Positions 33,525 to 61,309 of a DNA stretch of 64,000 bases are shown here, in pieces. The notes beneath the pieces are model-generated. The model did no database searches. It was not told where the DNA came from and saw nothing but the letters and a program-made list of their open reading frames with translations. Location of the stretch: positions 514,069 through 578,068 of the forward strand of contig CAVRZA010000006.1 in NCBI GenBank assembly GCA_963725665.1, given 5' to 3'. Origin of the DNA: an uncultured Actinomycetes bacterium. Lineage in GTDB: Bacteria; Actinomycetota; Thermoleophilia; UBA2241. Numbering within the stretch: the stretch's first letter is position 1; every line of letters begins with the position of its first letter. The position numbers and the translations under genes are program-made.

Positions 33525-35021
33525 ATGAGCACGCTGGAGCCAGCCGGCCGGCCGGCGCCGGCGCAGCAGGGCGGCCGGCCGGCCATCGAGCCACTGAAGG
33601 TCGCACGCCCCGTCAGGTTCCAGAACGACGACGAGCTCGACCGGCTTCGCGAGGCGACGCTGCACGTGCTCGAGCACGTCGGCGTCACGTTCCCCTCTCC
33701 CCGCGCCCTGGAGCTGCTGAGCGGCCACGGGGCGCGCGTCGACGACGCGCACGCAGGTCGTCAGGTTCCCGCCCGACCTGGTGCTGCGCGCGATGGCGAC
33801 GGCGCCGCGCTTCTACACGCTGGGAGCGCGCGACCCGGCCTGCGACCTGCGCTTCGCGAAGGGTGTCAGCTACCTCACCAACGACGGCTGCGGGCACCTC
33901 GTCCTCGACATCGGCAGCACGACCACCAGGCCCTCGACCAAGGACGACGTGGCGGCCGCGGCCCGCGTCTGCGACCACCTGTCGGCCGTCTCCTTTCTGT
34001 GGCCGATGGTCTCGGCCCAGGACCACGGCGCCACCGCCCCGCTGCACGAGATCGACGCCATGTGGAGCAACAGCGTCAAGCACGTGCAAGGGTTCGTGCA
34101 CGGGGCGGCGGCCGCGCGGCGCGCCGTCGAGATGGCCACGATCGTGGCCGGCGGCGAGACGGCGCGGCGCGCGCGGCCGCCGCTCTCGGCCATGGTGTGC
34201 ACGGTCTCCCCCCTCATGCAGGACCGCGAGGCGATCGAGGCGGCCCTGGAGTTCGCCGCCGCCGGCATCCCCGTCGGCTTCACGTCGATGCCTACCATGG
34301 GTACGACGGCACCGGCGACGATGGCCGGCCTGCTCGCCGTCGCCGACGCCGAGGTCGTGAGCGCGACCGTCCTCGTGCAGCTCGCGGCGCCCGGCGCGCC
34401 GGTCTTCCACTCCATCCTGCCGGCCACCTGCGACCCGCGCACGGGAGCCTACGTGCCCAAGCCGCTCAACCGTTACGGACGCCAGGCGGTCGTCGAGATC
34501 GCCCATCACTGGGGCGTGCCGTCACAAGTGGGCGCCTTCGGCACCGGCTCTCGCGAGCCGGGGACGTGGCAGGCGGCCGCCGAGAGCGGGCTCGACCTGT
34601 ACCTGGTGGCCCTCGCCGGCGCCGACATGATCGCCGGCATCGGCCTCCTCGACGGCTCCACCGTTCTCGCCCTCGACAGCCTGCTGCTCGACGCCGACCT
34701 CTATCACCGCACCCGCTACGCGCTGCAGCGCCTGCCGATCGACGACGAGACGCTGGCCCTCGACACCGTGACGCAGGTCGGACCCGGCGGTCACTACCTG
34801 GGGACCAAGCACACGCGACGCCACCTGCGCGACACCGTGGTGCCGGGCCTGCAGCACGAGACCGGTCCCGATGGGGAGTACCGCGACCCGCTCGCGGTGG
34901 CCCGCGAGCGGGTCGCCTGCGATCCTCGAGCACCACCATCCGGAGCCGCTGCCGGACGATCGGCGCGCCGGCTCTCGACGAGGTGCTCGCAGCCGCCGAC
35001 CGCGAGGCCGCCGGACAGTGA
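33525..35021 (+). CDS. Trimethylamine methyltransferase (MttB) superfamily, non-pyrrolysine (frameshifts near 33750, 34920 and 34970)
   Basis: ATLHVLEHVGVTF, KHVQ, VSPL, MGTTAPATMAG, GADMIAGIGLLD, IDDETLALD...VGPGGHYLGTKHT. Confidence 0.85.
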   Translation: MSTLEPAGRPAPAQQGGRPAIEPLKVARPVRFQNDDELDRLREATLHVLEHVGVTFPSPRALELLSGHGARVDDAHAGRQVPARPGAARDGDGAALLHAGSARPGLRPALREGCQLPHQRRLRAPRPRHRQHDHQALDQGRRGGRGPRLRPPVGRLLSVADGLGPGPRRHRPAARDRRHVEQQRQARARVRARGGGRAARRRDGHDRGRRRDGAARAAAALGHGVHGLPPHAGPRGDRGGPGVRRRRHPRRLHVDAYHGYDGTGDDGRPARRRRRRGRERDRPRAARGARRAGLPLHPAGHLRPAHGSLRAQAAQPLRTPGGRRDRPSLGRAVTSGRLRHRLSRAGDVAGGRRERARPVPGGPRRRRHDRRHRPPRRLHRSRPRQPAARRRPLSPHPLRAAAPADRRRDAGPRHRDAGRTRRSLPGDQAHATPPARHRGAGPAARDRSRWGVPRPARGGPRAGRLRSSSTTIRSRCRTIGAPALDEVLAAADREAAGQ

Positions 35022-35193
35022 CGACAGCGGGGCGCCGCCGTCGCAAGCGACGCGGCGCCGCCGTCTCGAGCGACGCGGCGCCCCCGGGTCGCCTCCGTGT
35101 CGTTGCCGTCGCCGCGGGCGCATCGGTAGACTGCCGCTAGTCGCGGAGCTCCTTCTTCGACTGCGCACACTGACCGCTGCCCGAGGAGGCCCC

Positions 35194-36508
35194 ATGAAGG
35201 TGCTCGTCGTCGGTGGTGGAGGGCGTGAGCACGCGCTCGTCCACGCCTTCGCCTCGTCGAACCTGGCCACCCAGCTCTACTGCGCGCCGGGCAACGCCGG
35301 CATCGCGCAGGAGGCGGAGTGCGTGCCGATCGGGGGAGAGGACATCGAAGCGCTGCTCGCCTTCGCGCGCGGCGAGCGCATCGACCTGACGGTCGTGGGA
35401 CCCGAGGCGCCGCTCGTCGCCGGCGTCGCAGACGCCTTCGAGGACAACGGCCTGGCCGTCTTCGGCCCTTCGCGGGCGGCCGCGCAGCTCGAGGGGAGCA
35501 AGCTCTTCGCCAAGCAGATCATGGCCGACGCGGGGGCGCCGACCGGCGGCTACGCGCGCTTCACCGACCACCGGTCGGCGCTCGACCACCTCGCCGGCGC
35601 CTCCTACCCGCTCGTGGTGAAGGCCGACGGCCTCGCGGCCGGCAAGGGGGTCACGGTGGCGCAGACGCGCGACGAGGCCCAGGCGGCAGTCGAGGAGGCC
35701 CTCGTCGCGCGTCGCTTCGGCCTGGCCGGCGAGGTGATCCTCATCGAGGAGTTCCTGGCGGGACCCGAGGTCTCGCTGCTGGCCCTCTGCGACGGCACCA
35801 CCGTCGTGCCCATGGCTCCCGCGCAGGACTACAAGCGCATCTTCGCCGGCGACCAGGGACCAAACACCGGCGGCATGGGCAGCTACTGTCCCGTACCGGG
35901 CTTCTCCTCCGACACCGCCGACATGATCGTCGAGGAGATCTTCCAGCCCGTGCTCGCGGCGCTCGTCAAGCGCGGCATCTGGTACCGCGGGGTGCTCTAC
36001 GGCGGCCTCATCGTCACCGACGCCGGCACGAAGATCCTCGAGTTCAACGTGCGCTTCGGCGACCCCGAGACGCAGGCCATCCTGCCGCGCCTCGACTCCG
36101 ACCTGCTCGAGCGCGTGCCTGGCCACGGCGAGGGGCGAGCTTCGCGGAGCGAAGCTCGCCTGGAAGCCCGACGCCTGCGTCTCGGTCGTCATGGCCTCCA
36201 AGGGCTACCCCGCGTCGAGCTCGAAGGGCGACGTCATCAGCGGCCTCGACGCGGCCGCCGGCATGGACGGCGTGGCCGTCTACCACGCCGGCACGGCGTT
36301 CGAGGACGGTCACACCGTCACGGCCGGCGGCCGCGTCCTCGCCGTGAGCGCGCTCGGCGAGTCGTTCGCCGCCGCCCGCGACCTGGCCTACGACGGGGTG
36401 AAGAAGATCTCGTTCCCGGGCATGCAGTGGCGGCCCGACATCGCCGAGCGCGCCGTCACGGCGGAGCAGGGCGAGCTGGAGCTCTTCCCGCCCGGCGTGC
36501 TCGCCTGA
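35194..36508 (+). CDS. purD: Phosphoribosylamine-glycine ligase (frameshift near 36117)
   Basis: [35 protein letters not shown] and RFGDPETQ; C-terminus ASKGYP...HAGT...TAGGRVL. Confidence 0.95.
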
Positions 36509-36619
36509 GACACCGCGAGCGCGACGACAGCAGTAGGATGACAACCTAGCGGCAAGACGGCCCCGCGGCGCCCTCTTGCCCTGCTCGATCTACGCCGGCA
36601 CGGGAGCGAAGGAGGGGCG

Positions 36620-48627: not shown

Positions 48628-48792
48628 TCACTCCTCGACCGGCTCGAACATGTCCTTAGCGGCGCCGCAGGTCGGGCACTCCCAGTCCTCGGGCAGATCC
48701 TCGAAGGCCGTGCCCGGAGGGATGTCGCCGTCGGGATCGCCGACTTCGGGGTCGTAGATGTAGTCGCACAACGTACAGGCCCACTTCTGCAT
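48628..48792 (-). CDS. Rubredoxin
   Basis: [49 protein letters not shown]. Confidence 0.97.
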
Positions 48793-48932
48793 GCTGACCT
48801 CCGACTGGGACGGGTTCGGGGCGTGCCGTGGCACGAATCCTAGCATCGTTCTGCGCGGCAAACTGTGCGATGATGCCCGGGCAAAATGCTCCGGCATCGC
48901 GACGAGGCAGCCGATCGGAGGCGCACGACAGC

Positions 48933-50009
48933 ATGACGGCAAGGAGCAGGGCGATCCGGAGCGCGGCGGGCCGCGGCGAGACAGAGGCCGAGGGCGGCCC
49001 TTACCGCCGCTTGTACAGGATCGCCGGCGCGATCGTCCAGGTCGAGTCGCCGATCCCTTTCAGCGACACGACCTTCGAACCGAAGTTCGTCGCCTTCCGA
49101 GCCGACGGCCCCCCGTCGGACGTGGAGGCCGGCGCCGAGGCCGGCGGGGACCCGCCCGACCAGCCGATCCGCATCAGGCATCACTTCGCGCTGCCCGACG
49201 AAGCCGTGCGCCGCTGCGAGCGGCGGCGCGAGGTCTACCGCGAGGCTCCCTGGGCCGTGTTCCGCGCCGAGGACTCGTGGGTCTACGAGGGCATCCTGCC
49301 GAGCGGCGAGGCGCAGCTCTGGTGCGTCGTCGTGGCCGACGAGGACCACTCCCACATCGACATCTACCACCCCGACGAGACCGCCTTCCGCCGCGGCGGG
49401 TGGCACTCCCTGAGCATGCTGCCCACCGACCAGATCGTCCTCGCCCGCTCGCTCGCCTCGCGGCAGGCCTGCTACCTGCACTCGAGTGCGGTCATCCTCG
49501 ACCGGCAGGGATTCGTTTTCGTGGGCCACTCCGACGCCGGCAAGACCACGATCTCGCGCCAGCTCACGGCCGGCGGGGCGGAGCTGCTCTGCGACGACCG
49601 CAACATCGTGCGCCGCTGGCCCGACGGCTTCCGCCTGCACGGCACCTGGAGCCACGGCGACATCCCCGAGGTCAGCGGCAGCGAGGCTCCGCTGAAGGCG
49701 CTGCTGTTCCTGAAGCAGGCCGAGCGCAACAGGCTCGTCCCGCTCGCGGAGCGCGACGCCTTCTACCGCCTGACCTCGTGCGTCGTGAGGCCGCTTCTCA
49801 GCGCCGACTGGTGGGAGCAGACGCTCGACCTGCTGGAACGGCTCGCGCGGGAGGTGCCCTGCCACGAGCTGGAGTTCGACACGAGCGGCGAGGCACCCGA
49901 CCTGGTCGCCTCGCTCTTGCGGAGTGACGGGCCGTCGCCGGCGACCTCGAAGGGCGCCCCGGCGAGCATCTCGAACCCCAAACGAGAGGACACATGGAAC
50001 CTCAAGTGA
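48933..50009 (+). CDS. HPr-kinase-related (RiPP-type) kinase
   Basis: [18 protein letters not shown] (P-loop) and LLCDD motifs; first gene of the RRE/radical SAM cassette. Confidence 0.8.
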
Positions 50010-50302
50010 CGCTCGACGCCGTCGTCGTCGCCTCGCAGGACGTCGTGGCGCGCCGCATCGAGGACGAGCTCATCCTGGTCCCGTTGGTCGGCGACATCGG
50101 CAACCGGGACGACGAGCTCTTCTCGCTCAACGACACCGGCATGAAGATCTGGGACTGCCTCGATGGGCAGCGCACGCTGCGCGACGTGGCCGCCGAGCTG
50201 GCCGAGCGCTACGACGACCCGGGGGGCGAGATCGAGGCCGACGTCATCGGCCTCGTGAGTGAGCTCGCGAGGAGGCGCCTGGTCGTTGTCCGCGAGGCCT
50301 GA
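49994..50302 (+). CDS. PqqD-family RiPP recognition element (RRE)
   Basis: VVARRIEDELILVP...LFSLNDTGMKIWDCLDGQRTLRDVAAELAERYD...IEADVIGLVSEL. Confidence 0.92.
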   Translation: MEPQVTLDAVVVASQDVVARRIEDELILVPLVGDIGNRDDELFSLNDTGMKIWDCLDGQRTLRDVAAELAERYDDPGGEIEADVIGLVSELARRRLVVVREA

Positions 50303-51379
50303 GAACCCCGCCGCCGCACTCTGTCCCGACTGCGGCGTGCCCCTGAGCTGGCGCAGCCGGGTCCGCTGCCGGGAACGTCCGCCCCGACCTGCCGCGCAGG
50401 AGCTGCGCCTCGAAGCGCCGTCCACCAGCATCCTCGTCACCGACGTCGTGGTCGCTCGTGCCCTTGCCAAGAAGGGATCGTTGACCCTGGTCGGGTCTGG
50501 CGCCTGCATGGAGCCGGCCATCAAGGACGGGGACGCGGTGCGCGTCGACCCCGTGGAGCTCCGCGAGGCGAAGGTCGGTCAAGTGGCGGTCTTCCGGCGC
50601 GACGGCGCGCTGCTCGCGCACCGCATCGTGAGCAAGGGCGGCGACGGCAAGGCGCACCTGGTGACCAGGAGCGACGCGAACACCGGGGCAGACGATGGGC
50701 CCCTCTACGAAGACGACTTCGTCGGTGTCGTGGCCGCGATAGAGCGGCGGGGGCGGCCGCGCCGCCTCGCGGCGCGGCCGCCCGACGAGCCCGCCTGGCG
50801 GCGCAGCGCCCGGACGCGCTATCTCGCCGCCCGGCGCAGGGCCACCCTCGCCGCCATGCGTGGCCTGTCGGCCGCCCAGCGGCTGCCGGCCTACCGCTCG
50901 CTCGCCTCGCGCGCACTCGCGCCCTCGCGGCGCGGCGCGCGCATCGTCGTGCGCCTGCCCCTGCACGCCGCCCAGACGCACGACCTGCACCGCGAGCTCG
51001 CACTCGACGAGGCCCTGACGGCCGTGCGCGAGGGCGCGCCGGCCCCGACCGGTTCGAGCTCGCCCTCCTAGGCGACGACGCCCGCCGCGGCGGCAAGGTA
51101 CACCTCGCCTCGCTGACGGTCGTGCGCCTGCCGGAGGGCTGCCCCGAGGCCGGGTGGTGGCTCGTCGACCTCGACACCCGCCTGCGCCGCCGCGCCGCGG
51201 GGCTCGAAGAGCCCCTGCTCGGCGCGGCGGCCTCTCTCCTCAGAGCCATCGGCGGGCGCGAGCTCAAGGCCGACCCCGAGGTCCTGACCGGCTACGAGCA
51301 GGACCTCCTGCGCCGCAACGGCTTCAAGCTGCAGGCGTCTTCACCCAGCCCCGTCCTCGAGCGTATCCTCGCGAGCTGA
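50286..51379 (+). CDS. S24/S26-like peptidase fused to a GNAT-like C-terminal domain (frameshift near 51050; start uncertain)
   Basis: GSGACMEPAIKDGDAVRV...GQVAVFRRDGALLAHRIV...TRSD...D; C-terminal GWWLVDLDTRLRRRAAGLEEPLL...LLRRNGF. Confidence 0.7.
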
Positions 51380-52549
51380 TGGACCAGCGATCGCACGAAC
51401 CGAGCATGAACGCGCGAGCGGACCGACCGAGCAAGTACGTGACCGAGACGCAGATGCCGCGCCTCGACCTGTGGGCCAAGCTGGCCGAGCGGCGCAAGCC
51501 GGCGTCCTTCGAGCTCGAGACGACGGCCCGCTGCAACAACGACTGCCGCCACTGCTACATCAACCTGCCTGAGAACGACGCCGAGGCCGAGGCGAAGGAG
51601 CTGACGCTCTCTGAGACCCTCGACATCGCCCGCCAGGCGACGGAGCTGGGGGCGGTGTGGTGCCTCGTCACGGGCGGCGAGCCCCTGCTGCGCGACGATT
51701 TCGCCGACCTCTACCTCGGCCTCAAGAAGCTCGGCCTGCTGGTCTCGGTCTTCACCAACGCCTGCCTCGTGACGCCCGAGCACGTCGAGCTCTTCGGCCG
51801 CTACCCGCCGCGCGACATCGAGGTCACCGTCTACGGCGCAACCGAGGCGACCTACGAGCGCGTCACGCGCCGCAAGGGCTCCTTCGCAGCCTTCCGGCGC
51901 GGCCTCGACCTGCTCCTCGACGGCGGCGTGCCGGTGCGGCTCAAGGCGATGGCGCTGCGCTCCAACGTGCACGAGTTCGACGAGATGGCCGCCTTCTGCC
52001 GCAAGCACACCAAGGACTACTACCGCTTCGACCCACTCATCCACCTGCGCTACGACGGCGACCCGCGGCGCAACGAGGAGATCCGCGGAGAACGGTTGAC
52101 CCCGCGCGAGATCGCCGAGCTCGAACGGCGCGACCCGGAGCGTCTGAGCTACATGCGGGAGCACTGCCATGAGCTGATCGAGGACTCGCCAGGAGTCGGC
52201 CGATCGCAACGCCCTCTTCACGTGCGGAGCGGGGCTCGAGTCCTTCACCGTCACCTACGACGGCCGCTTGCGCCTGTGCTCGGCCCTGGGTCACCCCGAC
52301 TGCGTCTACGATCTGCGTTCCGGCAGCCTGAAGGAGGCATGGTCCGAGTTCATCCCCTCCGTACGGAACCTGCGCTCCTCTGACCCCGACTTCCTGGCTC
52401 GCTGCGCCTCGTGCCACCTCGTGAACCTCTGCCTGTGGTGCCCCGCGCACGCCTTCCTCGAGGCAGGTAAGCTCGATGCCGTGCCGAATGACTTCTGCGA
52501 GTCGGCGCTTGCTCGGGCCGGGGTGCTCGGCCACGGCGAGACCGATTGA
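51379..52549 (+). CDS. Radical SAM/SPASM peptide maturase (frameshift near 52200)
   Basis: ELETTARCNNDCRHCY, TGGEPLLR and FTN motifs; SPASM region FTCGAG...LRLCS...CASCHLVNLCLWCP...FC. Confidence 0.9.
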
Positions 52550-52574
52550 CGAGTGGCGGAGCCATTACGATAAT
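52546..52574 (+). promoter_or_regulatory. Near-consensus sigma70 promoter for the precursor peptide gene
   Basis: TTGACG-N17-GATAAT. Confidence 0.7.
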
Positions 52575-52622
52575 GCGCGAAGCGTGCCGACAACGGCGCA
52601 ACGACAACGTCGGGGAGCCAGC

Positions 52623-52781
52623 ATGCCGAAACCGCCTGGAAGACGCCGAATCTGACGGTCATAGCACGGGGCAAGCCTGAGGAGAAGGTCCTTCTCGCCT
52701 GCAAGATGGGCGGCAGCGGCCCCGGCGGGCATCTGCGCCAGGTCCGAGCAACTGCGCAGCACGTTGGCTTCAGCTAGCTGA
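52623..52781 (+). CDS. Putative RiPP precursor peptide (~50 aa; needs a +1 correction after codon 3, and the C-terminal frame is uncertain)
   Basis: GGGGAG RBS, then ATG CCG AAA [+1] ...AWKTPNLTVIARGKPEEKVLLACKMGGSGPGG. It ends ...GFS* or ...STLASAS*, with extra Cys codons (ICAR, NC) in neighbouring frames. Confidence 0.75.
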
Positions 52782-52803
52782 CAACGGCGTGTTTCTCTTC
52801 CCA

Positions 52804-52840
52804 TCGGCCGACGACCTCCGGCGCGGGAGGCTTCGGTCGA
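52804..52840 (+). terminator. Stem-loop 3' of the precursor gene
   Basis: TCGGCCGA..CCTCC-loop-GGAGG..TCGGTCGA. Confidence 0.45.
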
Positions 52841-52900
52841 CCGTTTCGCGGGCAGTAGCGGCTCGCTGATCTCCGCCTCGATCCTTCTGGCGCCGGCCCG

Positions 52901-54113
52901 ATGAGCGGCGAGTCAGCCGCAACACGGTCCGGAGCTCGCCCTCCTGCTTCTCCTGCTCAAGGACCCGGCAGATGCCGAGTCGGCACACATCGCCACTGCG
53001 CTCCGTTCCGTAGATGAGGCAGCCTTCAGCGACCTGTGCCTTCGCCACCGCTTGACCGCGCTGGTCGTACGCCGACTGGTGCAGGCAGGCGTTCCGCCGG
53101 AGGAGCTCGACGGGCTGCAAGCCGACGCGGAGACCCTTCGACGGCAAAGCCTCCTCATGTTCGCGGCACTCGTGCGCCTGGTGCACCGATTCAACGAGTG
53201 CGAGATCCCGTGCCTGGTGTTCAAGGGCCCAGTGTTGTCGGAACTCGCCTACGGCGACCTCTCACTGAGGAGCTTCGTCGATCTGGACCTGCTGCTGCCA
53301 CGAGGGCAGCTTCGCCGAGCCGTCGAGCGCTTGACCACGGCCGGTCTCGTCCCCTCGGTGCCGCTGCCTGACAACGAGGCGTACTTCACGCGCTGGGGCA
53401 ATCAGTTCGAACTGGCCGATGACCAGGGAGACATTCACGTCGAGCTCCATTGGGAGTTGGAAGCCGGGCTGCAGGGGTCGCCTCTCGGCTGCGACGAGCT
53501 GCTGCGGCGTTCGCAGACGATCGACGTCGGTGAAGTGAGCCTGCGGACTCTGTCGCTGCCCGACCAGCTTCTCATGCTGGCCATCCACGCAGCGAAGCAC
53601 CGCTGGCTTCCACTAGAGCCGCTGATAGCCTTCGGCCGGCTCGTCGAAGCCCACCCGCAGCTCGATTGGGCGGAGACGCTGCGCTTGGCGACCGACAGCG
53701 GCACGCGGCGGCGGTTCCTGCTCACCATCGCGCTGACGAAGTCGTTCACCGCCGCCGCCTTTCCCGCGTGGCTCGTCGACTCGGCCGAGCGGGAGCCGGG
53801 GCTCGACGCGCTGAGGCGACGCGTCGAAGATGACTACTTCGCCGACAAGCCGTACCGCGCGGACTTGCCCGAGCGCCTGGGGGAGCTGCGCTGGGAGTTC
53901 GCCATCCGCGAGCGGCGGCGCGACGCCATCGAAGAGACCGTCAAGCGCCTCTTCTGGCCCCGGCCGGAGGACTGGGAGGCCGTGCGGCTGCCCGAGTCGC
54001 TGCTCTGGGCCTACTACGGGCTGAGGCCGATCAGGCTGGCCGGCAAGTTCGCGCGCGGTGGTCTTGGGCGGGCGCGCGAGCGCCTCGGCGCTCGCGCGCC
54101 CGCCCGCAACTGA
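52901..54113 (+). CDS. Nucleotidyltransferase family protein (NTP_transf_5-like, as in lasso/RiPP clusters; early frameshift)
   Basis: LVFKGPVLSELAYGDLSLRSFVDLDLLL, VELHW, LAIHAAKHRW and LYYxLRP-type C-terminus. The frame extends upstream as PELALLLLLL. Confidence 0.85.
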
Positions 54114-54184
54114 GCCCACATTTGCGACCACCATCCGTGTCGCCTATCATGGCGACATTCGTATGGACCTGGGGAGCTGCTAGG

Positions 54185-55805
54185 GTGGAATCTGGAAGCC
54201 CCAACCTGACCCTCCGTGACGCATTCAGCATCGTCTGGCGGCGCAAGTGGCTGATCGTGTTCATGGTGGTGGCCCTAACGGCCGCCGCCTACTCATTCTC
54301 GGCGCGTCAGCCCAAGCAGTATGTGGCCTCGACGAAGCTCATGTACGAGAAGCAGATCGACGTGGCGAACCCCCTCACCGGCAACAGCTACACCGATCCC
54401 GGCGAGCGCAACCTCGAGCTGCAGAGCGTGGGCGAAGCGCTGCAGAGCCCCGAGGTGCAGCGCTTCGCCGGCCAGAAGATGGGCGGACTGCCCCCCGAGG
54501 CCAGCTTCAGCATCACCGCGACGCCCGTCAGCACGAACCAGAACTACAGCAACGTCGTCGAGATCTCGGTCCAGTCGCAGGATCCCAACCGGTCGGCGCG
54601 ACTGGCAAACGCCTACGCGGCCGGCTTCATCGAGTGGCGCAAGCAGCAGGAACGGCAGCAGATCACGCGCGCCATCACGGTGCTCGACCAGAAGATCAAG
54701 GCGTACGGCGCGGGGGCCGCAAACGTGCCCGACTACATCTCGATGCAGCAGCGCCTGCACGACCTGCAGATCCTCTACGCCACCGTCACCGGCAACTACA
54801 CCGTCATCACCCCGGCGGTGCCCGACCCGACGCCGGTCGCGCCGCGGCCGATGCGATCGGCCGCCCTCGGCTTCGCCGTCGGCCTCTTCGCCGCGATCGG
54901 CCTCGCCTTCTTGCTGGAGCAGCTCGACACGCGCGTGCGCACCGTCAACGACGTGAGCGCCTCGCTCGACCTGCCCGTCCTCGGCCGCATCCCCGAAGTG
55001 GCCAGCCAGAGCGCTGCGCCAGGGCTCCATCATCGCCGCGCACGACCCCGACAGCGCCACCGCCGAAGCCCTGCGCGTGCTGCGCACGAACCTCGAGTTC
55101 ATCGGCGTCGACGGCGACGTCAAGTCGTTGCTGATAACGAGCTGCGGCCAGGGCGACGGCAAGACCCTCACCGTCTGCAATCTCGCCTTCACGCTGGCCA
55201 TGGCCGGCAACCGGGTCGTCGTGGTCGACGGCGATCTGCGCCGCCCCAAGGTGCACACCTACTTCAAGCTCTCCAACGACATCGGCCTCTCGACGGTTAT
55301 CAGCGGCAAGACGCCTCTGGTCGAGGCGCTGAGACCCTACGAGACCTACGTGTCGGGGAACAACGGCGACAACGGCAAGCAGGCCGCGAAGGGCAGCCGC
55401 CTGCTCGTGCTGACCGCGGGTCCCAAGCCGCCCAACCCGGGCGAGATGATCGCCTCACGCCGTCTCGACGTCTTGATGCGCGAGATCAAGGGCGCGCACG
55501 TCGATTTCGTGCTTGTCGACTCGCCCGCCTTCATGCCGGTGGGAGATGCCGGCGAGCTGGCGCGCAGCGTCGATGCCTGCGCCCTGCTGGTCGACATGGC
55601 CACCATCACGAAACCGCTCCTCGAGGAAGCCAGGGAGTTCCTGCGCCGCGTGCCCTGCCAAAAGGCCGGCATCGTGGCGGTGCGTGAGAAGGCCGGCTCG
55701 CGCTACTACCGCTCGGGCTACTACCTCCACGAAGAGCTGACACGGCCGCGCGGGGGGGACATGACAGCCACGACAGGAGCTAGGGTTTGCCCGTCTGGGA
55801 AGTAG
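54185..55805 (+). CDS. Polysaccharide co-polymerase/tyrosine autokinase (Wzz-Wzc/CpsCD fusion; frameshift near 55015)
   Basis: WRRKWLI, Pro-rich TM region PVAPRP, EALRVLRTNL, SCGQGDGKT, VDGDLRRP, VDSP and a Tyr cluster RYYRSGYY. Confidence 0.85.
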
Positions 55806-57256
55806 TGCTTCACCACGACGTCAGGGCGCCTGACTTCCTCTCGACCCATCACCTCGTCACCCGCTATTTCCTTCGTCGTGCCCTCAGCGTCGCGGCCCTC
55901 ATCACCATCGACGCCGGCAGCATCTTCATCGCCATGCTCTTCCTGCAGGCGCTCCTGCCGCTCGGCGTCGCGCCGGGTCCCGACATGCTTCACGTGCTCC
56001 CGTTCATCCCCATGGCTCTGTTGGTGTTCGCCCTCTACGGCCTCTACGGCACGCGGCGCCGGCGGCACGATTGGGTGCACATCCTCAAGGCGGGCAGCTA
56101 CGTCGTCCTCGTCGACGATCGTCGTGCGCGTGCTGACCAACCTGCACCCGCACGCGGGCCTGCTGATGGTCTGGGCCCTGGGGCTGCTCCTGTTGCTCGC
56201 CGGCCGCTACGCCTACGACTACCTGCTCAAGCTCATCTACGGCGGGCAGGTCGACGTGGAGCGCGCCTTGCTGCTCGGCGGTTGCGAGGCGTGCAGCGAG
56301 GTGGTCGAGTCGCTGCGCCCCCCGCGCGACTGCGCGAGCGCACGGCTGATCGGCGTCGTCGGTGAGGAGACGCATCCCCGCGAGTGGCAGGACGCCGCCG
56401 GCCTGCGCTCGCTCGGGTCGTACGAAGACCTCGAGCGCATCGTCGACACGCAGCACGTGGACCAGCTCATCGTGGCCGACTACGAGATCGAGCGGCGCCA
56501 CCTGCCCGCGCTCATCGAGCTCTGCCGGCGCAGGGACCTGGACCTCAAGCTGGCCAACCTCGAGATGCGCTTCGGGCCGGGCAGCGTCTGCCTCGTCCCC
56601 GGCATCGAGGAGCCCATCTTCGTCGTGCGCGAGTCGTTCACCGGCGCGCTCCCGTGGTTTGCCAAACGGATCGCCGACCGGCTGGCGGCGGCGCTCCTCC
56701 TCGTGCTGCTCTCGCCCGTGTTCCTGGTCATCGGCGTCCTCATCAAGGCCACGTCGCCGGGACCCGTGTTCTTCGTCGACACGCGCGTCGGTCTCGGTCA
56801 GAAGACCTTCAGGTGCTTCAAGTTCCGCACCATGTACGAGAACGCAGCCGAGCTGCAGGCCGAGCTGGAGGCGCGCAACGAGGCCGACGGGGCCATCTTC
56901 AAGATCAGGGACGACCCGCGCGTCACGCCGCGTCGGGCGCTTTCTGCGCGCCGAGCCTCGACGAGCTGCCGCAGCTCATCAACGTGCTGCAAGCGGCGAC
57001 ATGAGCCTGGTCGGGCCGCGGCCGCTGCCGCTGCGCGACAACGAGCTGCATGCGAGGCCTGGCACAAGCGCCGCCACGTCGTGCTGCCCGGCATCACCGG
57101 CCTGTGGCAGGTCAGCGGGCGCAGCGACACCTCGTTTCGACGAGATGATCGACCTCGACTTCCAGTACATCGAGATCGTGGTCGCTCTGGCTCGACCTCT
57201 CCATCCTCTGGCAAGACCGCTGGGCGGCCGTCCTCAGGTCGCAGGGCGCCTACTGA
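55787..57256 (+). CDS. Polyprenyl-phosphate glycosylphosphotransferase (WcaJ/WbaP-like; multiple frameshifts)
   Basis: [43 protein letters not shown] and [13 protein letters not shown] motifs. Confidence 0.88.
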
Positions 57257-57283
57257 TGACGCACGTCGCAGAAAGGAGCGACC

Positions 57284-58231
<948 letters not shown>

Positions 58232-58237
58232 CCGGAC

Positions 58238-59878
58238 TTGGCTGACGACGAGCTCCGGAGTGAGCGGCCCGGGCGACGCGGGCCGGACCGCACCGGAGGC
58301 CGAGGCGACAGCCGGAGCGAGATCAGCAGAGCCTCACCGCCGCGACCGTCCACGGCCTCAAGTGGAGCTACACCTCCACGTTCGTCAACGCCGTGCTGCA
58401 GATCGGCGTCACGGCCGTGCTCGCCCGCCTGCTCACGCCGAGCGCCTTCGGCCTGGTGGCCATGGCGGGCGTCTTCCTGCGCTTCGGCCAGTACTTCGCG
58501 CAGATGGGCGCCGGCCAGGCCGTGGTGCAGCGGCCCGAGCTCAGCGAGCGCGACGTGCACAGCGCGTTCACCTCGTCGCTGCTCGTCGGCGCGGCCTTCT
58601 GCGGCGCTGTTCGTGGCCCTGGCGCCGCTGGCCGCGCTGCTCTTCCCGCGACACCCCCGGCGTGGTCGCCGTGACGCGAGTGATGTCGCTCACCTTCGTC
58701 ATCGGCGGCCTCACGGCCGTGACGCAAGGCCTCCTGCGACGCCGCTTCGCCTTTCAGCGCCATCGCCCTGACCGAGATCGGCACCTTCGTGCTCGGCTAC
58801 GCCCTGGTGGGCCTGATGCTCGCCGTTCTTGGGGTTCGGCGCCTGGAGTCTCGTCGCCGCGTCACTTAGTCGCGGGCGCGCTGGCGGCCGCGATCTACCT
58901 GGTCCTGTGCCGCCGCGACATCGGCTTCGGTCTGCCAGTGGGCTCCCTGAAGTCGATCTACTCGTTCGGGGGCCGCGTGTCGCTCATCGGCTTCGGTGAG
59001 TTCATCGGCAGCAACCTCGACACCCTGTGGGCGGGCCACTTCTTAGGCTCGGCGGCCACGGGCCTGTACACACGCGCGACCAACCTCGCCAACGTGCCGC
59101 TGTACTACCTCACCACGAGCCTTTCTCGGGTACTCATGCCGGCCTACAGCCGCATCCAGTCCGAGCGCGAACGGCTCGAAGTCGGTCTACCTGACGACCA
59201 TCACCGTGGTCGGCGCCATCGCCATGCCGATCTCGTGGGGCGTCGCGGCCGCCGCCCACGAGGTCATCGTCGACGCTGCTCGGGCGGTCAGTGGCTGGCG
59301 CGCCGTGCCGGTGCTGGCCGTTCTGGCACTCGCCGTGCCCTTCACCCTCCTCACCACTTCGGCGCCATCCTCTGCGAGGCAACGGCGACCCTGAACGTGA
59401 AGATCGCCATCACGGTCGGCCGCATCGGATGGCTCGCCGCCCTGTTCGTGGTGTCTGGCGCGCTTCGGCATCGTCGGCATCGCCACGGCGTTCGCACTCT
59501 CGGAGCTCGACCACCCACGTCGCCTACCTGCTGGTGATGAGGCGGCTGCTGACGCTCAGCCTCGCCGACCTGCGGCGGGCCTATTCACTAGGTCTGGCCG
59601 CCGGCGTCGTGACCGGGCTGGCGCTGCTTGGCCTCCACGCCGGCCTCACCGGCCTGGGCTGGCCGGCGCCGGCGGTGCTCGCCGTGCAGGTCGCGGTCGG
59701 AGCTCTCTGCTTGCTCGGCACCGTCACCAAGGCGCGCGAGGGGGTGGTGTGGCGGGAGATCCGCACCCGACTCAGCGAGGCCGGCCACGGGCCCAAGGTC
59801 TCGGGTGTCACGGCATGGATCATCGGGCGAATGGACTCTCTGGCCGGAGGTACGGCTCCGAAGCCTCCTGCTGGCTGA
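58238..59878 (+). CDS. Wzx-type polysaccharide flippase (WzxC-like; multiple frameshifts)
   Basis: VLARLLTPSAFGLVAM, QMGAGQAVVQR, NLDTLWAGHFLGSAATGLYTRA and RVLMPAYSRIQ motifs. Confidence 0.85.
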
Positions 59879-60150
59879 CCGACCCGATCATCCGGGCAGG
59901 CCGGCCGACGGCGATGGTGTCGGGGGGCACGTCGTCTGCCACCACGCTTCCAGGGGCCGCGTCGTCCGTTGCCGCAATTTGCGAGCCCTCGGACGAGCTT
60001 GCGCTCGAGCATCTCAGCGATCTGTCCTCGGCACCTGGTACCAGGCATCGTTTCGAAGGGAATACGGCTCTTGCCAATGAGCACCGGGTCGAACTTCGGG
60101 GCTGGCACCAGAACCACCCGGAGAGATACCGGGAGGCGCCGAATGAGCGG
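59860..60150 (-). pseudogene. Degenerate hexapeptide-repeat acyltransferase fragment
   Basis: Only the C-terminal motif is recognisable: APGSVVADDVPPDTIAVGRPARMI. Confidence 0.45.
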
Positions 60151-60189
60151 TCCGCCGTCCCTACGCATTCATTCCGCGGACAAGCCGCT

Positions 60190-61109
60190 CGGACCCGCTC
60201 CACTGCTCCAATCCATGTAGACGCCACGCGCGGTCGACGTCGAGGAGGCAACCAAGGATCCTTGGCACGAATGGCGTTGGAGCACGCCTTGCAGATTGTC
60301 GCATCATCGAAGCCGTCGAGTTGGTTGGCCTGCACCAGACTGCGCATCCCGTCTGAGTCGAACAGCGAGGAATAGGGCTGCGACAATAGGTTACCCAGCG
60401 GGTGACTGAGGCCGTAGTCCATGCAGCATAGAACCACATCACCGTTCGGCAAGACGACGTTGTGATCGTAGCTGGGCGTGGATTGGCATGCGACCGGATA
60501 ATGGTGCCTAACCTGAGCAGCGCGATCCTCGTCAACTGTACCTGCCCGGGATTGGGCCAAGAAATGGCCTAACCGGCGAGGCAAAAGGTCCGCAACTGCC
60601 GGATGCACCCTGCCATTCGGGCTCATGGTCATCATCTGCAACCCTCCGCGATTGCCGCGCCGCCGCATGAGCGAGTCATCGACGAGAGGACTTCCGCCAC
60701 GTGAGCGTGGTACTCGGGAGACGGACGAAACCCGCTCCATGTTGTCTTGGGCATCCGGAAGGTGCAGGCAAAACGGGTTCTCACGGGTAAAGTGGTCCAG
60801 GTGTTCGATTAGTGACGCAACACCTCCATCCGACATGCCCACCAATGTCGTGTATACGGCAACACGGTGCCCCTTTTCGAGGACGTGGAGGAACATCCCG
60901 GTCGCTTCGCGCGCAGACCAAGGCTCGGCCATCCCCGAGAAATCGATGCGCACGTCGTCGGGGACGGTCGACATCACGGACCTGAAGTCCTTAAGGGTGA
61001 GTTCGCGGGCGGCTCCTCGCGGATAGCGCGAGTGCAGCAGCCGCTGCGGACAGCAGCGGCATGCGAGAGGGCAACCGACCACTGTCGTGATCTCTAAAGT
61101 CGGACGCAT
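60190..61109 (-). CDS. Radical SAM protein with SPASM/twitch domain in the polysaccharide locus (end uncertain)
   Basis: LEITTVVGCPLACRCCPQ, FSGMAEP, SRAG, and C...HNVVLPNGDVVLCCMDY...LGNL...CKAC. Confidence 0.8.
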
Positions 61110-61309
61110 TTCACCCGCTTTCTGCCTCGGCGCTTGCTTCTGGCCGCATCGCTGCACTGCACAGGGTTCCGCGGTTCGCCATCAAGACTCGCCTTGGTGT
61201 AAGCGTGCTCGCTGTGCCAGTCGGCCGAGGCGGCTCGCCACGGTCAGCATGTCCAGCGTCAAGTCCTGTGCCGTGCGCAGGATCGGCCTCGCAGTCCGCT
61301 CATGCCACC

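What the first reader, a model, noticed from the sequence alone, without database searches (positions are those of the whole stretch)
52546..52840. Hidden RiPP precursor missed by the ORF track, with its own promoter and 3' hairpin
Seen in sequence: TTGACG-N17-GATAAT, then RBS GGGGAG, then ATG at 52623. Adding one base in the A/C run after codon 3 gives MPK(T/P)AWKTPNLTVIARGKPEEKVLLACKMGGSGPGG. The WxxPxL motif resembles the YxxPxL RRE-binding motif of lasso leaders. The core is Gly/Ser-rich, with one certain Cys and two more Cys codons (ICAR, NC) in neighbouring frames. Both possible ends are Ser (...GFS*, ...STLASAS*). A dedicated promoter plus stem-loop is the usual way a precursor is expressed in excess over its enzymes. 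From memory this resembles WxxPxLxVLxRGxPEExVLxxCK peptides found beside radical SAM genes in anaerobes, and I know of no characterised product.
Basis: partly seen in the sequence, partly recalled or inferred. Interest (0 to 1): 0.85.

Follow-up and report, generated by a model that had tools for sequence, protein, structure and literature searches.

The report
Frame-broken precursor of an unnamed RiPP family
The stretch holds a small peptide gene, broken by frameshifts in this assembly, from a very large, unnamed family of peptides that radical SAM enzymes are predicted to cross-link.

Summary
Window 52637-52705 encodes a leader (W-K-T-P-N-L...P-E-E...C-K) that matches a peptide family I recovered from related cassettes. 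A family HMM scores it E 7.5e-13, and it is the only hit in the 64 kb. Using the neighbouring radical SAM/SPASM gene as bait, 60 of 80 related loci from many bacterial phyla and Methanothrix archaea carry 107 such small ORFs. A profile finds 3,552 protein clusters in public data. None is named, and none is in Pfam or NCBIfam. Family members end in Ser or Thr in 94 of 97 cases, and 82 of 97 end C-x5-S/T. The cassette also holds a PqqD leader-binding protein, an HPr-kinase-fold protein, an S24-type peptidase (fused to GNAT in relatives) and an NTP_transf_5 protein. I infer a thioether-type cross-linked peptide whose C-terminal Ser is phosphorylated, as in paeninodin-type lasso peptides. This copy is not intact. 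ATG 52623 is one base out of frame, and a family-typical Cys core needs three more shifts. Reads must decide between assembly error and decay. The promoter-like site is real. The 3' hairpin is no better than chance.

The parts
52546..52574 (+). Promoter-like site TTGACG-N17-GATAAT. It overlaps the TGA stop of the rSAM/SPASM gene (52547-52549).
   Evidence: 10 of 12 consensus matches. 1 site found against a mean of 0.0 in 50 shuffles. Unique in the window, 0 of 100 shuffles. Function untested.
52612..52617 (+). Shine-Dalgarno-like GGGGAG, 5 nt before ATG 52623
   Evidence: Read directly from the sequence.
52623..52636 (+). Start codon ATG and first codons (M-P-K...). This frame stops after 10 codons. 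It is one base out of register with the leader frame, so an indel must lie within 52626-52636.
   Evidence: Family starts lie 3-14 residues before the Trp and are Lys/Arg-rich.
52637..52705 (+). Leader-coding part, from W-K-T-P-N-L to C-K. All eight near-invariant family positions are present (W, P, L, R, E, L, C, K).
   Evidence: Family HMM E 7.5e-13 on HMM positions 4-38. Alignment A4. tblastn to the loci gave 98 hits with E<0.01 in 56 of 80 loci.
52706..52781 (+). Core-coding part, with ambiguous frame. The leader frame gives a 23-residue Cys-free core ending GFS + TAG (52775-52777). Cys codons lie at 52734 (ATG frame) and 52753 (third frame). An alternative end, ...ASAS + TGA, is at 52779-52781.
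   Evidence: A family-typical C-x(2-10)-C-x5-S/T-stop reading needs three single-base shifts. Such a reading is possible in only 177 of 20000 random window positions and 253 of 20000 Markov sequences.
52804..52840 (+). Imperfect GC-rich stem-loop 3' of the peptide gene, with no U tract
   Evidence: dG -23.5 kcal/mol, z -1.37, and 20 of 200 shuffles fold as well. Terminator scan found 0.
48933..50009 (+). HPr-kinase/PEPCK-fold P-loop protein (ScmC-like). Its relatives carry the precomputed Pfam accession PF27840.
   Evidence: NCBIfam ScmC 28.4 bits and HprK_rel_B 22.1 bits, both below their cut-offs. Model pLDDT 80.4. Foldseek hits to PEPCK and HprK/P. Invariant G-H-S-x-A-G-K-x-T. PF27840. Present in 56 of 80 loci.
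49994..50302 (+). PqqD-family RRE (leader-binding chaperone)
   Evidence: Pfam PqqD E 6.1e-16. Present in 68 of 80 loci. Complex model with the leader scored 0.49 against a best control of 0.01, which is weak support.
50259..51379 (+). S24/S26-type peptidase gene with a C-terminal extension, frameshifted between 50756 and 51107. Its TGA overlaps the rSAM ATG at 51379.
   Evidence: Pfam Peptidase_S24 E 2.9e-5 and NCBIfam sigpep_I_arch E 4.7e-13. tblastn with L077:6479-7510 hits two different frames. Relatives are S24+GNAT fusions. Homologues occur in 67 of 80 loci.
51379..52549 (+). Radical SAM/SPASM maturase, with one frameshift between 52179 and 52208
   Evidence: Pfam Radical_SAM E 2.8e-21. 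SPASM-type Cys motifs in the 52268-52549 frame. Homologues hit two frames. 245 relatives at 57-69% identity.
53052..54113 (+). NTP_transf_5 'uncharacterised nucleotidyltransferase'
   Evidence: Pfam E 4.6e-42. Present in 28 of 80 loci.

Best explanation
Window 52623-52777 is one copy of the precursor-peptide gene of a large, unnamed RiPP family. The family is built as follows: Met, a few Lys/Arg, then W-x-x-P-x-L-x-V-L-V-R-x-x-P-E-E-x-V-L-x-x-C-K, then a hypervariable 18-51-residue core with usually 2-3 Cys, ending C-x5-Ser/Thr. It belongs to the cassette around it: an HPr-kinase-fold protein, a PqqD RRE, an S24-type peptidase, a radical SAM/SPASM enzyme and NTP_transf_5. The mechanism below is inferred except where marked. 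The conserved leader docks on the PqqD protein, which presents the core to the radical SAM/SPASM enzyme. That enzyme cross-links the core cysteines (sacti- or ranthipeptide-like thioethers are my best guess, about 0.55). The HPr-kinase-fold protein phosphorylates the invariant C-terminal Ser/Thr, and the NTP_transf_5 protein may decorate that phosphate, as in paeninodin and pseudomycoidin (about 0.5). The S24 peptidase removes the leader. Where a GNAT is fused, it acetylates the new N-terminus or the invariant Lys (about 0.35). Shown here: family membership of the leader, co-occurrence of the genes, and the conserved C-terminal pattern. In this assembly the gene is not translatable as written. 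The ATG is one base out of frame, and a family-typical core would need three further single-base shifts. I lean towards consensus or assembly error (about 0.55) over real decay (about 0.35) or a single shift with an atypical Cys-free core (about 0.1).
For: The leader matches a family HMM at E 7.5e-13, and this is the only hit in the 64 kb. All eight near-invariant residues are present. With the adjacent rSAM as bait, 245 relatives were found and 80 loci kept. Of these, 60 carry 107 family ORFs, up to 12 per locus. In 8 loci a copy lies within 600 nt 3' of the rSAM gene, as here. Among 97 full-length members, 94 end in Ser/Thr, 82 end C-x5-S/T, 91 have the C-K junction, and 95 have 2-5 core Cys. 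A profile search of 1.84 billion representatives gave 3,552 hits at E<=1e-3 and 1,581 at E<=1e-10. Co-occurrence in loci that hold precursors: PqqD 54 of 60, HprK-like 48 of 60, NTP_transf_5 25 of 60. S24-type peptidase occurs in 67 of 80 loci. The kinase-like protein has the HprK/PEPCK fold and an invariant Walker-A-like motif. HPr-kinase homologues phosphorylate the C-terminal Ser of lasso precursors, and a nucleotidyltransferase glycosylates that phosphate (passages of PMC8498205). The closest solved relative of the rSAM is the sactisynthase SkfB, at E 1.3e-10. Frameshifts also break the peptidase, rSAM, Wzz, sugar-transferase and epimerase genes, so indels are common in this assembly. The start spacing fits the family if one base is missing.
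Against: As assembled there is no in-frame start, and the in-frame core has no Cys, which only 1 of 97 family members shares. Four indels in about 130 nt is far above the window's general density of at least 6 in about 9 kb, so simple random error does not explain it. No product, cross-link or phosphorylation has been observed for any member. The kinase-like protein does not reach any Pfam or NCBIfam HPr-kinase model. The rSAM reaches no curated family cut-off, so its chemistry is a guess. 20 of 80 loci showed no precursor, although 6 of them are under 9.5 kb long. NTP_transf_5 was detected in only 28 of 80 loci.
Confidence: 0.85

Rival explanations
1. The copy is a genuine pseudogene. The precursor, and perhaps the whole cassette, is decaying in this organism, and the indels are real.
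For: At least one and probably four frame breaks lie in about 130 nt. This is far denser than elsewhere in the window. The peptidase and rSAM genes of the same cassette are also frameshifted. No second precursor copy exists in the 64 kb.
Against: All eight near-invariant leader residues are intact, with no substitutions. Unrelated polysaccharide genes in the same window are also frameshifted, which points to the assembly. The promoter-like site, RBS and ATG are intact.
Confidence: 0.33
2. Only the start is affected (one indel). The true product has the in-frame, Cys-free, Gly/Ser-rich core ending GFS, which would make it an atypical family member.
For: It needs only one correction. The in-frame end is Ser, as in the family. 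One family member without core Cys exists.
Against: 95 of 97 members have 2-5 core Cys and 82 of 97 end C-x5-S/T. The Cys codons in the other frames reproduce that pattern, which happens in only about 1% of null sequences.
Confidence: 0.1
3. It is a lasso-peptide precursor, as the YxxPxL-like leader, the PqqD, the HPr-kinase-like gene and the nucleotidyltransferase gene might suggest.
For: Intact family members gave sub-threshold leader matches to paeninodin-family and rhodolasso models (E 0.066-0.68). PqqD has weak matches to lasso PqqD models (33.4 bits against a cut-off of 70). The tailoring genes are as in paeninodin/pseudomycoidin clusters.
Against: No asparagine-synthase-like cyclase and no transglutaminase-type B2 protease were found among the ORFs scanned in window 33.8-64 kb, nor among 34 ORFs of loci L077, L004 and L026. 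The conserved enzyme is a radical SAM/SPASM, and the core's conserved residues are Cys.
Confidence: 0.03
4. It is the precursor of a peptide-derived redox cofactor (PQQ- or mycofactocin-like) rather than of a secreted natural product.
For: There is a PqqD plus PqqE-like rSAM pairing. The rSAM is 57-69% identical across phyla and domains, a degree of conservation that would suit a housekeeping-type function. The C-terminal pattern is fixed.
Against: Cores are hypervariable and often multi-copy, with up to 12 per locus. This is typical of diversifying natural products and not of cofactors. PqqE, PqqD and mycofactocin models all score below their cut-offs. The Glu-x3-Tyr of PqqA and the C-terminal Val-Tyr of MftA (both recalled) are absent.
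Confidence: 0.06
5. It is a chance open frame in GC-rich intergenic DNA, or part of a minus-strand gene.
For: High-GC DNA gives many spurious ORFs. Three minus-strand ORFs overlap the region.
Against: HMM E 7.5e-13 with all invariants present. The minus-strand ORFs 52306-52704, 52565-52804 and 52770-53186 have no Pfam match, even at E<=1.
Confidence: 0.01

Closest known systems
Sactipeptide / ranthipeptide systems (radical SAM/SPASM maturase with an RRE acting on a Cys-containing precursor, e.g. SkfB, AlbA, StsB, PapB)
   Same: A short precursor with a conserved leader and a Cys-containing core. A SPASM-type radical SAM next to it. A PqqD-like RRE. The closest solved sequence relative of the maturase is SkfB, and the best NCBIfam row is StsB.
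   Different: The maturase reaches no curated family cut-off (70.7 bits against 625 for StsB). The RRE is a separate protein. The precursor family has its own leader and a fixed C-x5-Ser/Thr end. The cassette adds an HPr-kinase-fold protein, an S24 peptidase (with or without GNAT) and NTP_transf_5. The cross-link chemistry is unknown.
Phosphorylated / phosphoglycosylated lasso peptides (paeninodin, pseudomycoidin)
   Same: A precursor ending in Ser, an HPr-kinase homologue, a nucleotidyltransferase and a PqqD-type leader binder in one cluster (passages of PMC8498205). The leader has a similar Lys-rich N-terminus and an aromatic-x-x-Pro-x-Leu motif (sub-threshold matches).
   Different: No lasso cyclase or B2 protease was found; a radical SAM/SPASM is present instead. 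The kinase-like protein matches HprK only at fold level, not the Pfam or NCBIfam HprK models.
SynChlorMet (SCM) cassette of NCBIfam/TIGRFAMs (ScmC, ScmD, ScmE, ScmF)
   Same: The same kinds of parts: an HprK-like ScmC, a PqqD-like ScmD and PqqE-like radical SAM/SPASM proteins. These are among the best NCBIfam rows.
   Different: All scores lie far below the equivalog cut-offs: ScmC 28.4 against 125, ScmD 30.2 against 100, ScmE 60.3 against 400, ScmF 64.4 against 400. It is a related architecture and not the same system.
PQQ biosynthesis (PqqA/PqqD/PqqE)
   Same: A Trp-x-x-Pro leader motif bound by PqqD (the PqqA motif is recalled). PqqD and a PqqE-like rSAM are adjacent.
   Different: PqqD scores 39 against a cut-off of 46, and PqqE 64.6 against 381. 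The core is Cys-based, hypervariable and multi-copy.

Membership tests
The W-x-x-P-x-L...P-E-E...C-K precursor family defined here (alignment A1) | Leader with near-invariant W, P, L, R, E, L, C, K | tested here: met
   All eight are present in window 52637-52705. HMM E 7.5e-13.
The W-x-x-P-x-L...P-E-E...C-K precursor family defined here (alignment A1) | In-frame start 3-14 residues before the Trp | tested here: not met
   ATG 52623 is one base out of frame, and no ATG/GTG/TTG lies in frame before 52706. It would be met if one base were added in 52626-52636.
The W-x-x-P-x-L...P-E-E...C-K precursor family defined here (alignment A1) | Core with at least 2 Cys, ending C-x5-Ser/Thr | tested here: inconclusive
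   The in-frame core has no Cys but ends in Ser. The pattern is readable only across three frames, with a null frequency of 0.9-1.3%. In the family, 82 of 97 members end C-x5-S/T.
The W-x-x-P-x-L...P-E-E...C-K precursor family defined here (alignment A1) | Lies in a cassette with the conserved rSAM/SPASM and PqqD | tested here: met
   It lies 74 nt after the rSAM stop. 8 loci share this position.
RRE-dependent radical SAM/SPASM RiPPs (sacti-/ranthipeptide-like) | Radical SAM enzyme with a SPASM domain | tested here: met
   Radical_SAM E 2.8e-21. The SPASM match in the window piece is weak (E 0.0092, below cut-off), but Pfam SPASM is found in the orthologues L077 and L004.
RRE-dependent radical SAM/SPASM RiPPs (sacti-/ranthipeptide-like) | RRE that binds the leader | tested here: inconclusive
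   The PqqD domain is present. The complex model scored 0.49 against a best control of 0.01 and was rated weak support. That mark was reached by 58 of 80 solved complexes and 2 of 110 mismatches. The runs agree in at least 84% of contacts, and the partner's pLDDT is at least 55. Similar RRE-leader complexes are solved, so the pass may reflect likeness.
RRE-dependent radical SAM/SPASM RiPPs (sacti-/ranthipeptide-like) | Cys-to-carbon thioether cross-links in the product | not testable with these tools
   Needs mass spectrometry or NMR of a modified peptide.
Lasso peptides | Asparagine-synthase-like cyclase and transglutaminase-type leader protease in the cluster | tested here: not met
   Neither was found among the ORFs scanned in window 33.8-64 kb, nor among 34 ORFs of L077, L004 and L026.
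SynChlorMet cassette | Proteins reach the NCBIfam equivalog cut-offs for ScmC, ScmD, ScmE and ScmF | tested here: not met
   28.4 against 125, 30.2 against 100, 60.3 against 400 and 64.4 against 400. The rSAMs of L004, L077 and L026 are also below cut-off.
HPr-kinase-type RiPP kinases acting on a C-terminal Ser (paeninodin type) | HprK/PEPCK P-loop fold with a Walker A motif | tested here: met
   Foldseek hits to PEPCK (E 1.7e-7) and HprK/P (E 2.7e-5 to 3e-4, target-normalised TM up to 0.53). G-H-S-x-A-G-K-x-T is invariant in 13 sequences.
HPr-kinase-type RiPP kinases acting on a C-terminal Ser (paeninodin type) | Sequence membership in an HPr kinase family model | tested here: not met
   No Pfam family at E<=0.01. 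Only HprK_rel_B at 22.1 bits against a cut-off of 200. PDB HprK at E 0.069. Relatives carry PF27840, whose name I could not read.
HPr-kinase-type RiPP kinases acting on a C-terminal Ser (paeninodin type) | Substrate ends in Ser, and the Ser is phosphorylated | not testable with these tools
   The Ser/Thr end is shown (94 of 97). Phosphorylation itself needs an assay.

The most novel reading that the evidence does not exclude
The family is a new RiPP class spread across many anaerobe-rich bacterial phyla and Methanothrix archaea. In it, a PqqD-guided radical SAM/SPASM enzyme cross-links a hypervariable Cys core. The invariant C-terminal Ser/Thr is then phosphorylated by an HPr-kinase-fold enzyme (often fused to a second radical SAM domain) and further decorated by an NTP_transf_5 enzyme. 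An S24 peptidase-GNAT fusion cuts off the leader and acetylates the product. This would carry the C-terminal phospho-Ser tailoring logic, known only from lasso peptides, into radical SAM peptides, and would give thousands of unnamed small ORFs a function.
Probability: 0.3. Interest if true: 0.8.

Novelty: new variant of a known kind. Interest (0 to 1): 0.62.

Why it matters
Thousands of small ORFs in public genomes and metagenomes are labelled 'hypothetical protein' or not called at all: 3,552 clusters at 50% identity. They would become recognisable as precursors of one RiPP family with a defined leader, a defined C-terminal handle and a defined enzyme set. The cassette joins radical SAM cross-linking with the C-terminal Ser kinase/nucleotidyltransferase tailoring so far described only for lasso peptides. 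That combination makes a directly testable prediction: mass shifts of -2 Da per cross-link and +80 Da on the last Ser. A family model would also let annotation pipelines find these genes, including copies broken by indels as in this window. For this window, the practical message is that the assembly carries frequent indels, so the precursor cannot be used as written.

Tried and rejected
1. A word-indexed protein search with the window peptide found no candidate. The family only appeared after I fetched related cassettes.
2. Pfam and NCBIfam scans of the window peptide and of 10 intact members gave no family. Only sub-threshold rows appeared.
3. The PqqD-leader complex model gave weak support only: score 0.49, best control 0.01. 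The mark was reached by 58 of 80 solved complexes and 2 of 110 mismatches. The runs agree in at least 84% of contacts, and the partner's pLDDT is at least 55. I do not count this as evidence.
4. The terminator idea failed: 0 sites, and the hairpin is not better than shuffles. The exact-seed inverted-repeat search found none.
5. Lasso, SCM, PQQ, mycofactocin and GeoRSP memberships were all rejected on scores or missing genes.
6. Literature searches found no paper describing this cassette or peptide family. The term sets were: radical SAM + PqqD + HPr kinase + nucleotidyltransferase; SynChlorMet; HPr kinase + SPASM + precursor peptide; HprK-related kinase; HPr kinase/ranthipeptide/sactipeptide/radical SAM/RiPP; PadeK/ThcoK/PsmK/lasso peptide kinase/RiPP kinase; PF27840. 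The 2026 Crp paper (abstract and outline seen) concerns a different system in Methanococcus voltae. PMC10288494 (term search in text) and PMC4289311 (one passage) do not mention the cassette. The library lacks most subscription journals, and I did not open supplements, so prior description elsewhere is not excluded.
9. tblastn with the L026 peptidase-GNAT against the window gave no row at E<=1e-3, but gave E 5e-7 when run with a laxer cut-off. I rely.
10. Pfam found no GNAT domain in window 51020-51379.
Full report
**1. What is in the sequence**

- TTGACG-N17-GATAAT lies at 52546-52574, GGGGAG at 52612-52617 and ATG at 52623.
- The promoter-like match is the only one in the 64 kb, and none of 100 whole-window shuffles has one. 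The local scan found 1 site against a mean of 0.0 in 50 shuffles.
- The ATG frame stops after ten codons (MPKPPGRRRI*).
- The neighbouring frame is open from the TAA at 52571 to the TAG at 52775. It reads ...ETAWKTPNLTVIARGKPEEKVLLACKMGGSGPGGHLRQVRATAQHVGFS*. It has no ATG, GTG or TTG before the Met at 52706.
- The other two frames hold ...GICARSEQLRSTLASAS* and ...APGPSNCAARW....
- The 3' stem-loop (52804-52840, -23.5 kcal/mol) exists, but 20 of 200 shuffles fold as well. It has no U tract, and the terminator scan found nothing.

**2. The neighbourhood is a RiPP-type cassette**

All genes lie on the + strand.
- 48933-50009: an HPr-kinase-like/ScmC-like protein.
- 49994-50302: PqqD (Pfam E 6.1e-16).
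- 50259-51379: an S24/S26-type peptidase gene.
- 51379-52549: a radical SAM/SPASM gene (Radical_SAM E 2.8e-21).
- 52623-52777: the peptide.
- 53052-54113: NTP_transf_5 (E 4.6e-42).

No lasso cyclase or B2 protease was found among the ORFs scanned from 33.8 to 64 kb.

**3. The assembly carries many frameshifts**

Homologues hit the following genes in more than one frame.
- The rSAM gene: two frames, with the break between 52179 and 52208.
- The peptidase gene: two frames, with the break between 50756 and 51107.
- The Wzz-type gene: two frames, with the break near 54966-55000.
- The sugar-transferase domain: split over two frames.
- The epimerase domain: split over three frames.

That is at least six breaks in about 9 kb. 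A frame error in a 155-nt gene is therefore not surprising. Four would be.

**4. The peptide belongs to a real, large family**

- A word-indexed search with the peptide alone found nothing.
- I then used the unbroken N-terminal 284 residues of the rSAM as bait in 185,579 species genomes. This gave 245 relatives, of which the best 80 loci were kept, at 57-69% identity.
- By their record titles the loci come from Actinomycetota, Chloroflexota, Acidobacteriota, Planctomycetota, Omnitrophota, delta-proteobacteria, Chlorobiaceae, Lentisphaerae, WOR-3, a spirochaete family and Methanothrix-type archaea.
- tblastn with the window peptide hit 98 places in 56 of these 80 loci at E<0.01.
- An HMM built from the hits found 107 small ORFs in 60 of 80 loci, with 1 to 12 per locus. 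It found exactly one hit in the whole window, the frame 52574-52774, at E 7.5e-13 and 48.8 bits, covering the leader positions only.
- Of the 20 loci without a hit, six are shorter than 9.5 kb.

**5. Anatomy of the family**

These counts come from 97 full-length members in 56 loci.
- The start codon lies 3-14 residues before the Trp, and the N-terminus is Lys/Arg-rich.
- The leader is W-x-x-P-x-L-x-V-L-V-R-x-x-P-E-E-x-V-L-x-x-C-K. The C-K junction is present in 91 of 97.
- The core is hypervariable and 18-51 residues long, with 3 Cys in 67 members and 2 Cys in 22.
- The last Cys lies six residues from the end in 82 of 97.
- The C-terminal residue is Ser in 85 and Thr in 9.
- The window's leader keeps all eight near-invariant positions.
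- If one base is missing between 52626 and 52636, the start would sit five residues before the Trp, as in MPKKKW of L077.

**6. Size and naming**

- A profile of 92 members found 3,552 representatives at E<=1e-3 and 1,581 at E<=1e-10 among 1.84 billion cluster representatives.
- In the named collection, 373 proteins matched. Every name shown among the 120 listed is 'hypothetical protein', and none has a Pfam domain.
- Pfam and NCBIfam have no model for the family. Ten intact members gave only sub-threshold leader matches to paeninodin-family, rhodolasso and SSH RaS-RiPP models.
- Seven literature searches found no description of the cassette or the motif. The library lacks most subscription journals, and I opened no supplements.

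**7. The cassette is conserved**

- Within the DNA held, PqqD is present in 68 of 80 loci, the HPr-kinase-like protein in 56 of 80 and NTP_transf_5 in 28 of 80. S24-type peptidase homologues occur in 67 of 80, and both halves of an S24-GNAT fusion in at least 31 (domains by Pfam in L004 and L026).
- Among the 60 loci with a precursor, 54 have PqqD and 48 have the kinase-like gene.
- Some loci add one or two more radical SAM genes. In L004 and L077 the kinase-like domain is fused behind a radical SAM domain. L004 also has an ABC transporter.
- None of the rSAM proteins reaches any curated NCBIfam cut-off, including SCM, GeoRSP, StsB, PapB, PqqE and mycofactocin.
- L026 is syntenic with the window as far as the Wzz gene.
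- Most precursors lie upstream of the rSAM on the same strand (75 copies). In 8 loci a copy lies within 600 nt downstream, as in the window.

**8. The kinase-like protein**

- The model from 13 sequences has a mean pLDDT of 80.4.
- It resembles PEP carboxykinase (E down to 1.7e-7) and HPr kinase/phosphatase (E 2.7e-5 to 3e-4).
- G-H-S-x-A-G-K-x-T is invariant.
- By sequence alone, HprK in the PDB scores only E 0.069.
- Its relatives carry the precomputed accession PF27840.1. This is absent from the local Pfam copy, so I could not read its name.

**9. How it most likely works (inference)**

- The leader docks on PqqD. Modelling gave only a weak pass: 0.49 against a best control of 0.01. Solved RRE-leader complexes could explain that pass.
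- The rSAM/SPASM enzyme cross-links the core Cys residues. Its closest solved relative is the sactisynthase SkfB, at E 1.3e-10.
- The family ends in Ser/Thr in 94 of 97 members, and the cassette holds an HPr-kinase-fold protein and NTP_transf_5. This combination mirrors paeninodin and pseudomycoidin. There, an HPr-kinase homologue phosphorylates the C-terminal Ser of the linear precursor, and a nucleotidyltransferase adds hexoses to that phosphate (passages of PMC8498205).
- The S24 peptidase is the obvious leader peptidase. The fused GNAT may acetylate the new N-terminus or the invariant Lys.

**10. State of this copy**

- The in-frame core has no Cys, which only 1 of 97 members shares.
- A family-typical end can be read only across frames: Cys codon at 52734 in the ATG frame, Cys codon at 52753 in the third frame, and Ser 52772 plus TAG in the leader frame. 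That reading needs three single-base shifts.
- The same test succeeds in 177 of 20,000 random window positions and in 253 of 20,000 Markov sequences. The pattern is therefore unlikely to be chance (about 1%).
- However, four indels in about 130 nt greatly exceeds the window's general rate.
- Possible causes are an error hot spot (for example a strain-variable core or collapsed paralogues; this is speculation), real decay, or a single shift with an atypical core. Only the reads can decide.
- Irregular copies also occur in some loci, for example L045, L066, L079 and L034.

**11. Verdict**

The 3' hairpin is not above chance, and the lasso analogy does not extend beyond the leader and tailoring genes.
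- The peptide belongs to a known general kind, the RRE-dependent radical SAM/SPASM RiPP. It represents a new variant: an unnamed precursor family with a fixed C-terminal Ser/Thr, and a cassette that borrows the kinase/nucleotidyltransferase tailoring known from lasso peptides.

Noticed in passing
window 48933-50009; loci L004:9196-11157, L077:717-2690: Relatives of the HPr-kinase-like protein carry a precomputed Pfam accession, PF27840.1, that is not in the local Pfam copy, so I could not read its name. In many relatives the domain is fused behind a radical SAM domain (PF04055+PF27840, about 575-657 aa).
   Followed up: partly
window 59820-61157 (-): A second SPASM-domain ORF (Pfam SPASM E 8.6e-9) with a CxxxCxxC-like N-terminus lies inside the polysaccharide-synthesis gene cluster, apart from the RiPP cassette.
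   Followed up: no
window 54122-59537: A polysaccharide cluster (Wzz/tyrosine-kinase, Bac_transf sugar transferase, UDP-sugar epimerase/decarboxylase-like, flippase) follows the cassette, as in locus L026. Several of its genes are split over two or three frames. This shows how frequent indels are in this assembly.
   Followed up: partly
window 33781-36549 (+): One 922-aa ORF joins an MTTB (trimethylamine methyltransferase) domain to GARS_N/GARS_A (PurD) domains. This is an odd fusion and may be another assembly artefact.
   Followed up: no
L038 (Dehalococcoidia MAG), L061: Precursor genes are strongly amplified in some loci, with 12 copies in L038 and 7 in L061. The leaders are near-identical and the cores differ.
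   Followed up: partly
L062:489-656 and L062:2157-2348: The two precursors of L062 lack the x5-Ser tail (they end ...CSF and ...CIG), and no HPr-kinase-like gene was found in the 14 kb held. This hints at a link between the kinase and the C-terminal Ser. It is not conclusive, because the contig starts at the locus start.
   Followed up: partly
window 48628-48942 (-): A rubredoxin gene (NCBIfam RubredRD 98.1 bits, above its cut-off) diverges from the cassette. It could supply electrons to the radical SAM enzyme. However, a tblastn with it hit none of the 80 related loci at E<=1e-5.
   Followed up: partly
loci L001-L080: The rSAM/SPASM maturase is unusually conserved, at 57-69% identity over about 250 residues between bacterial phyla and Methanothrix archaea. 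Its substrates' cores, in contrast, are hypervariable.
   Followed up: no
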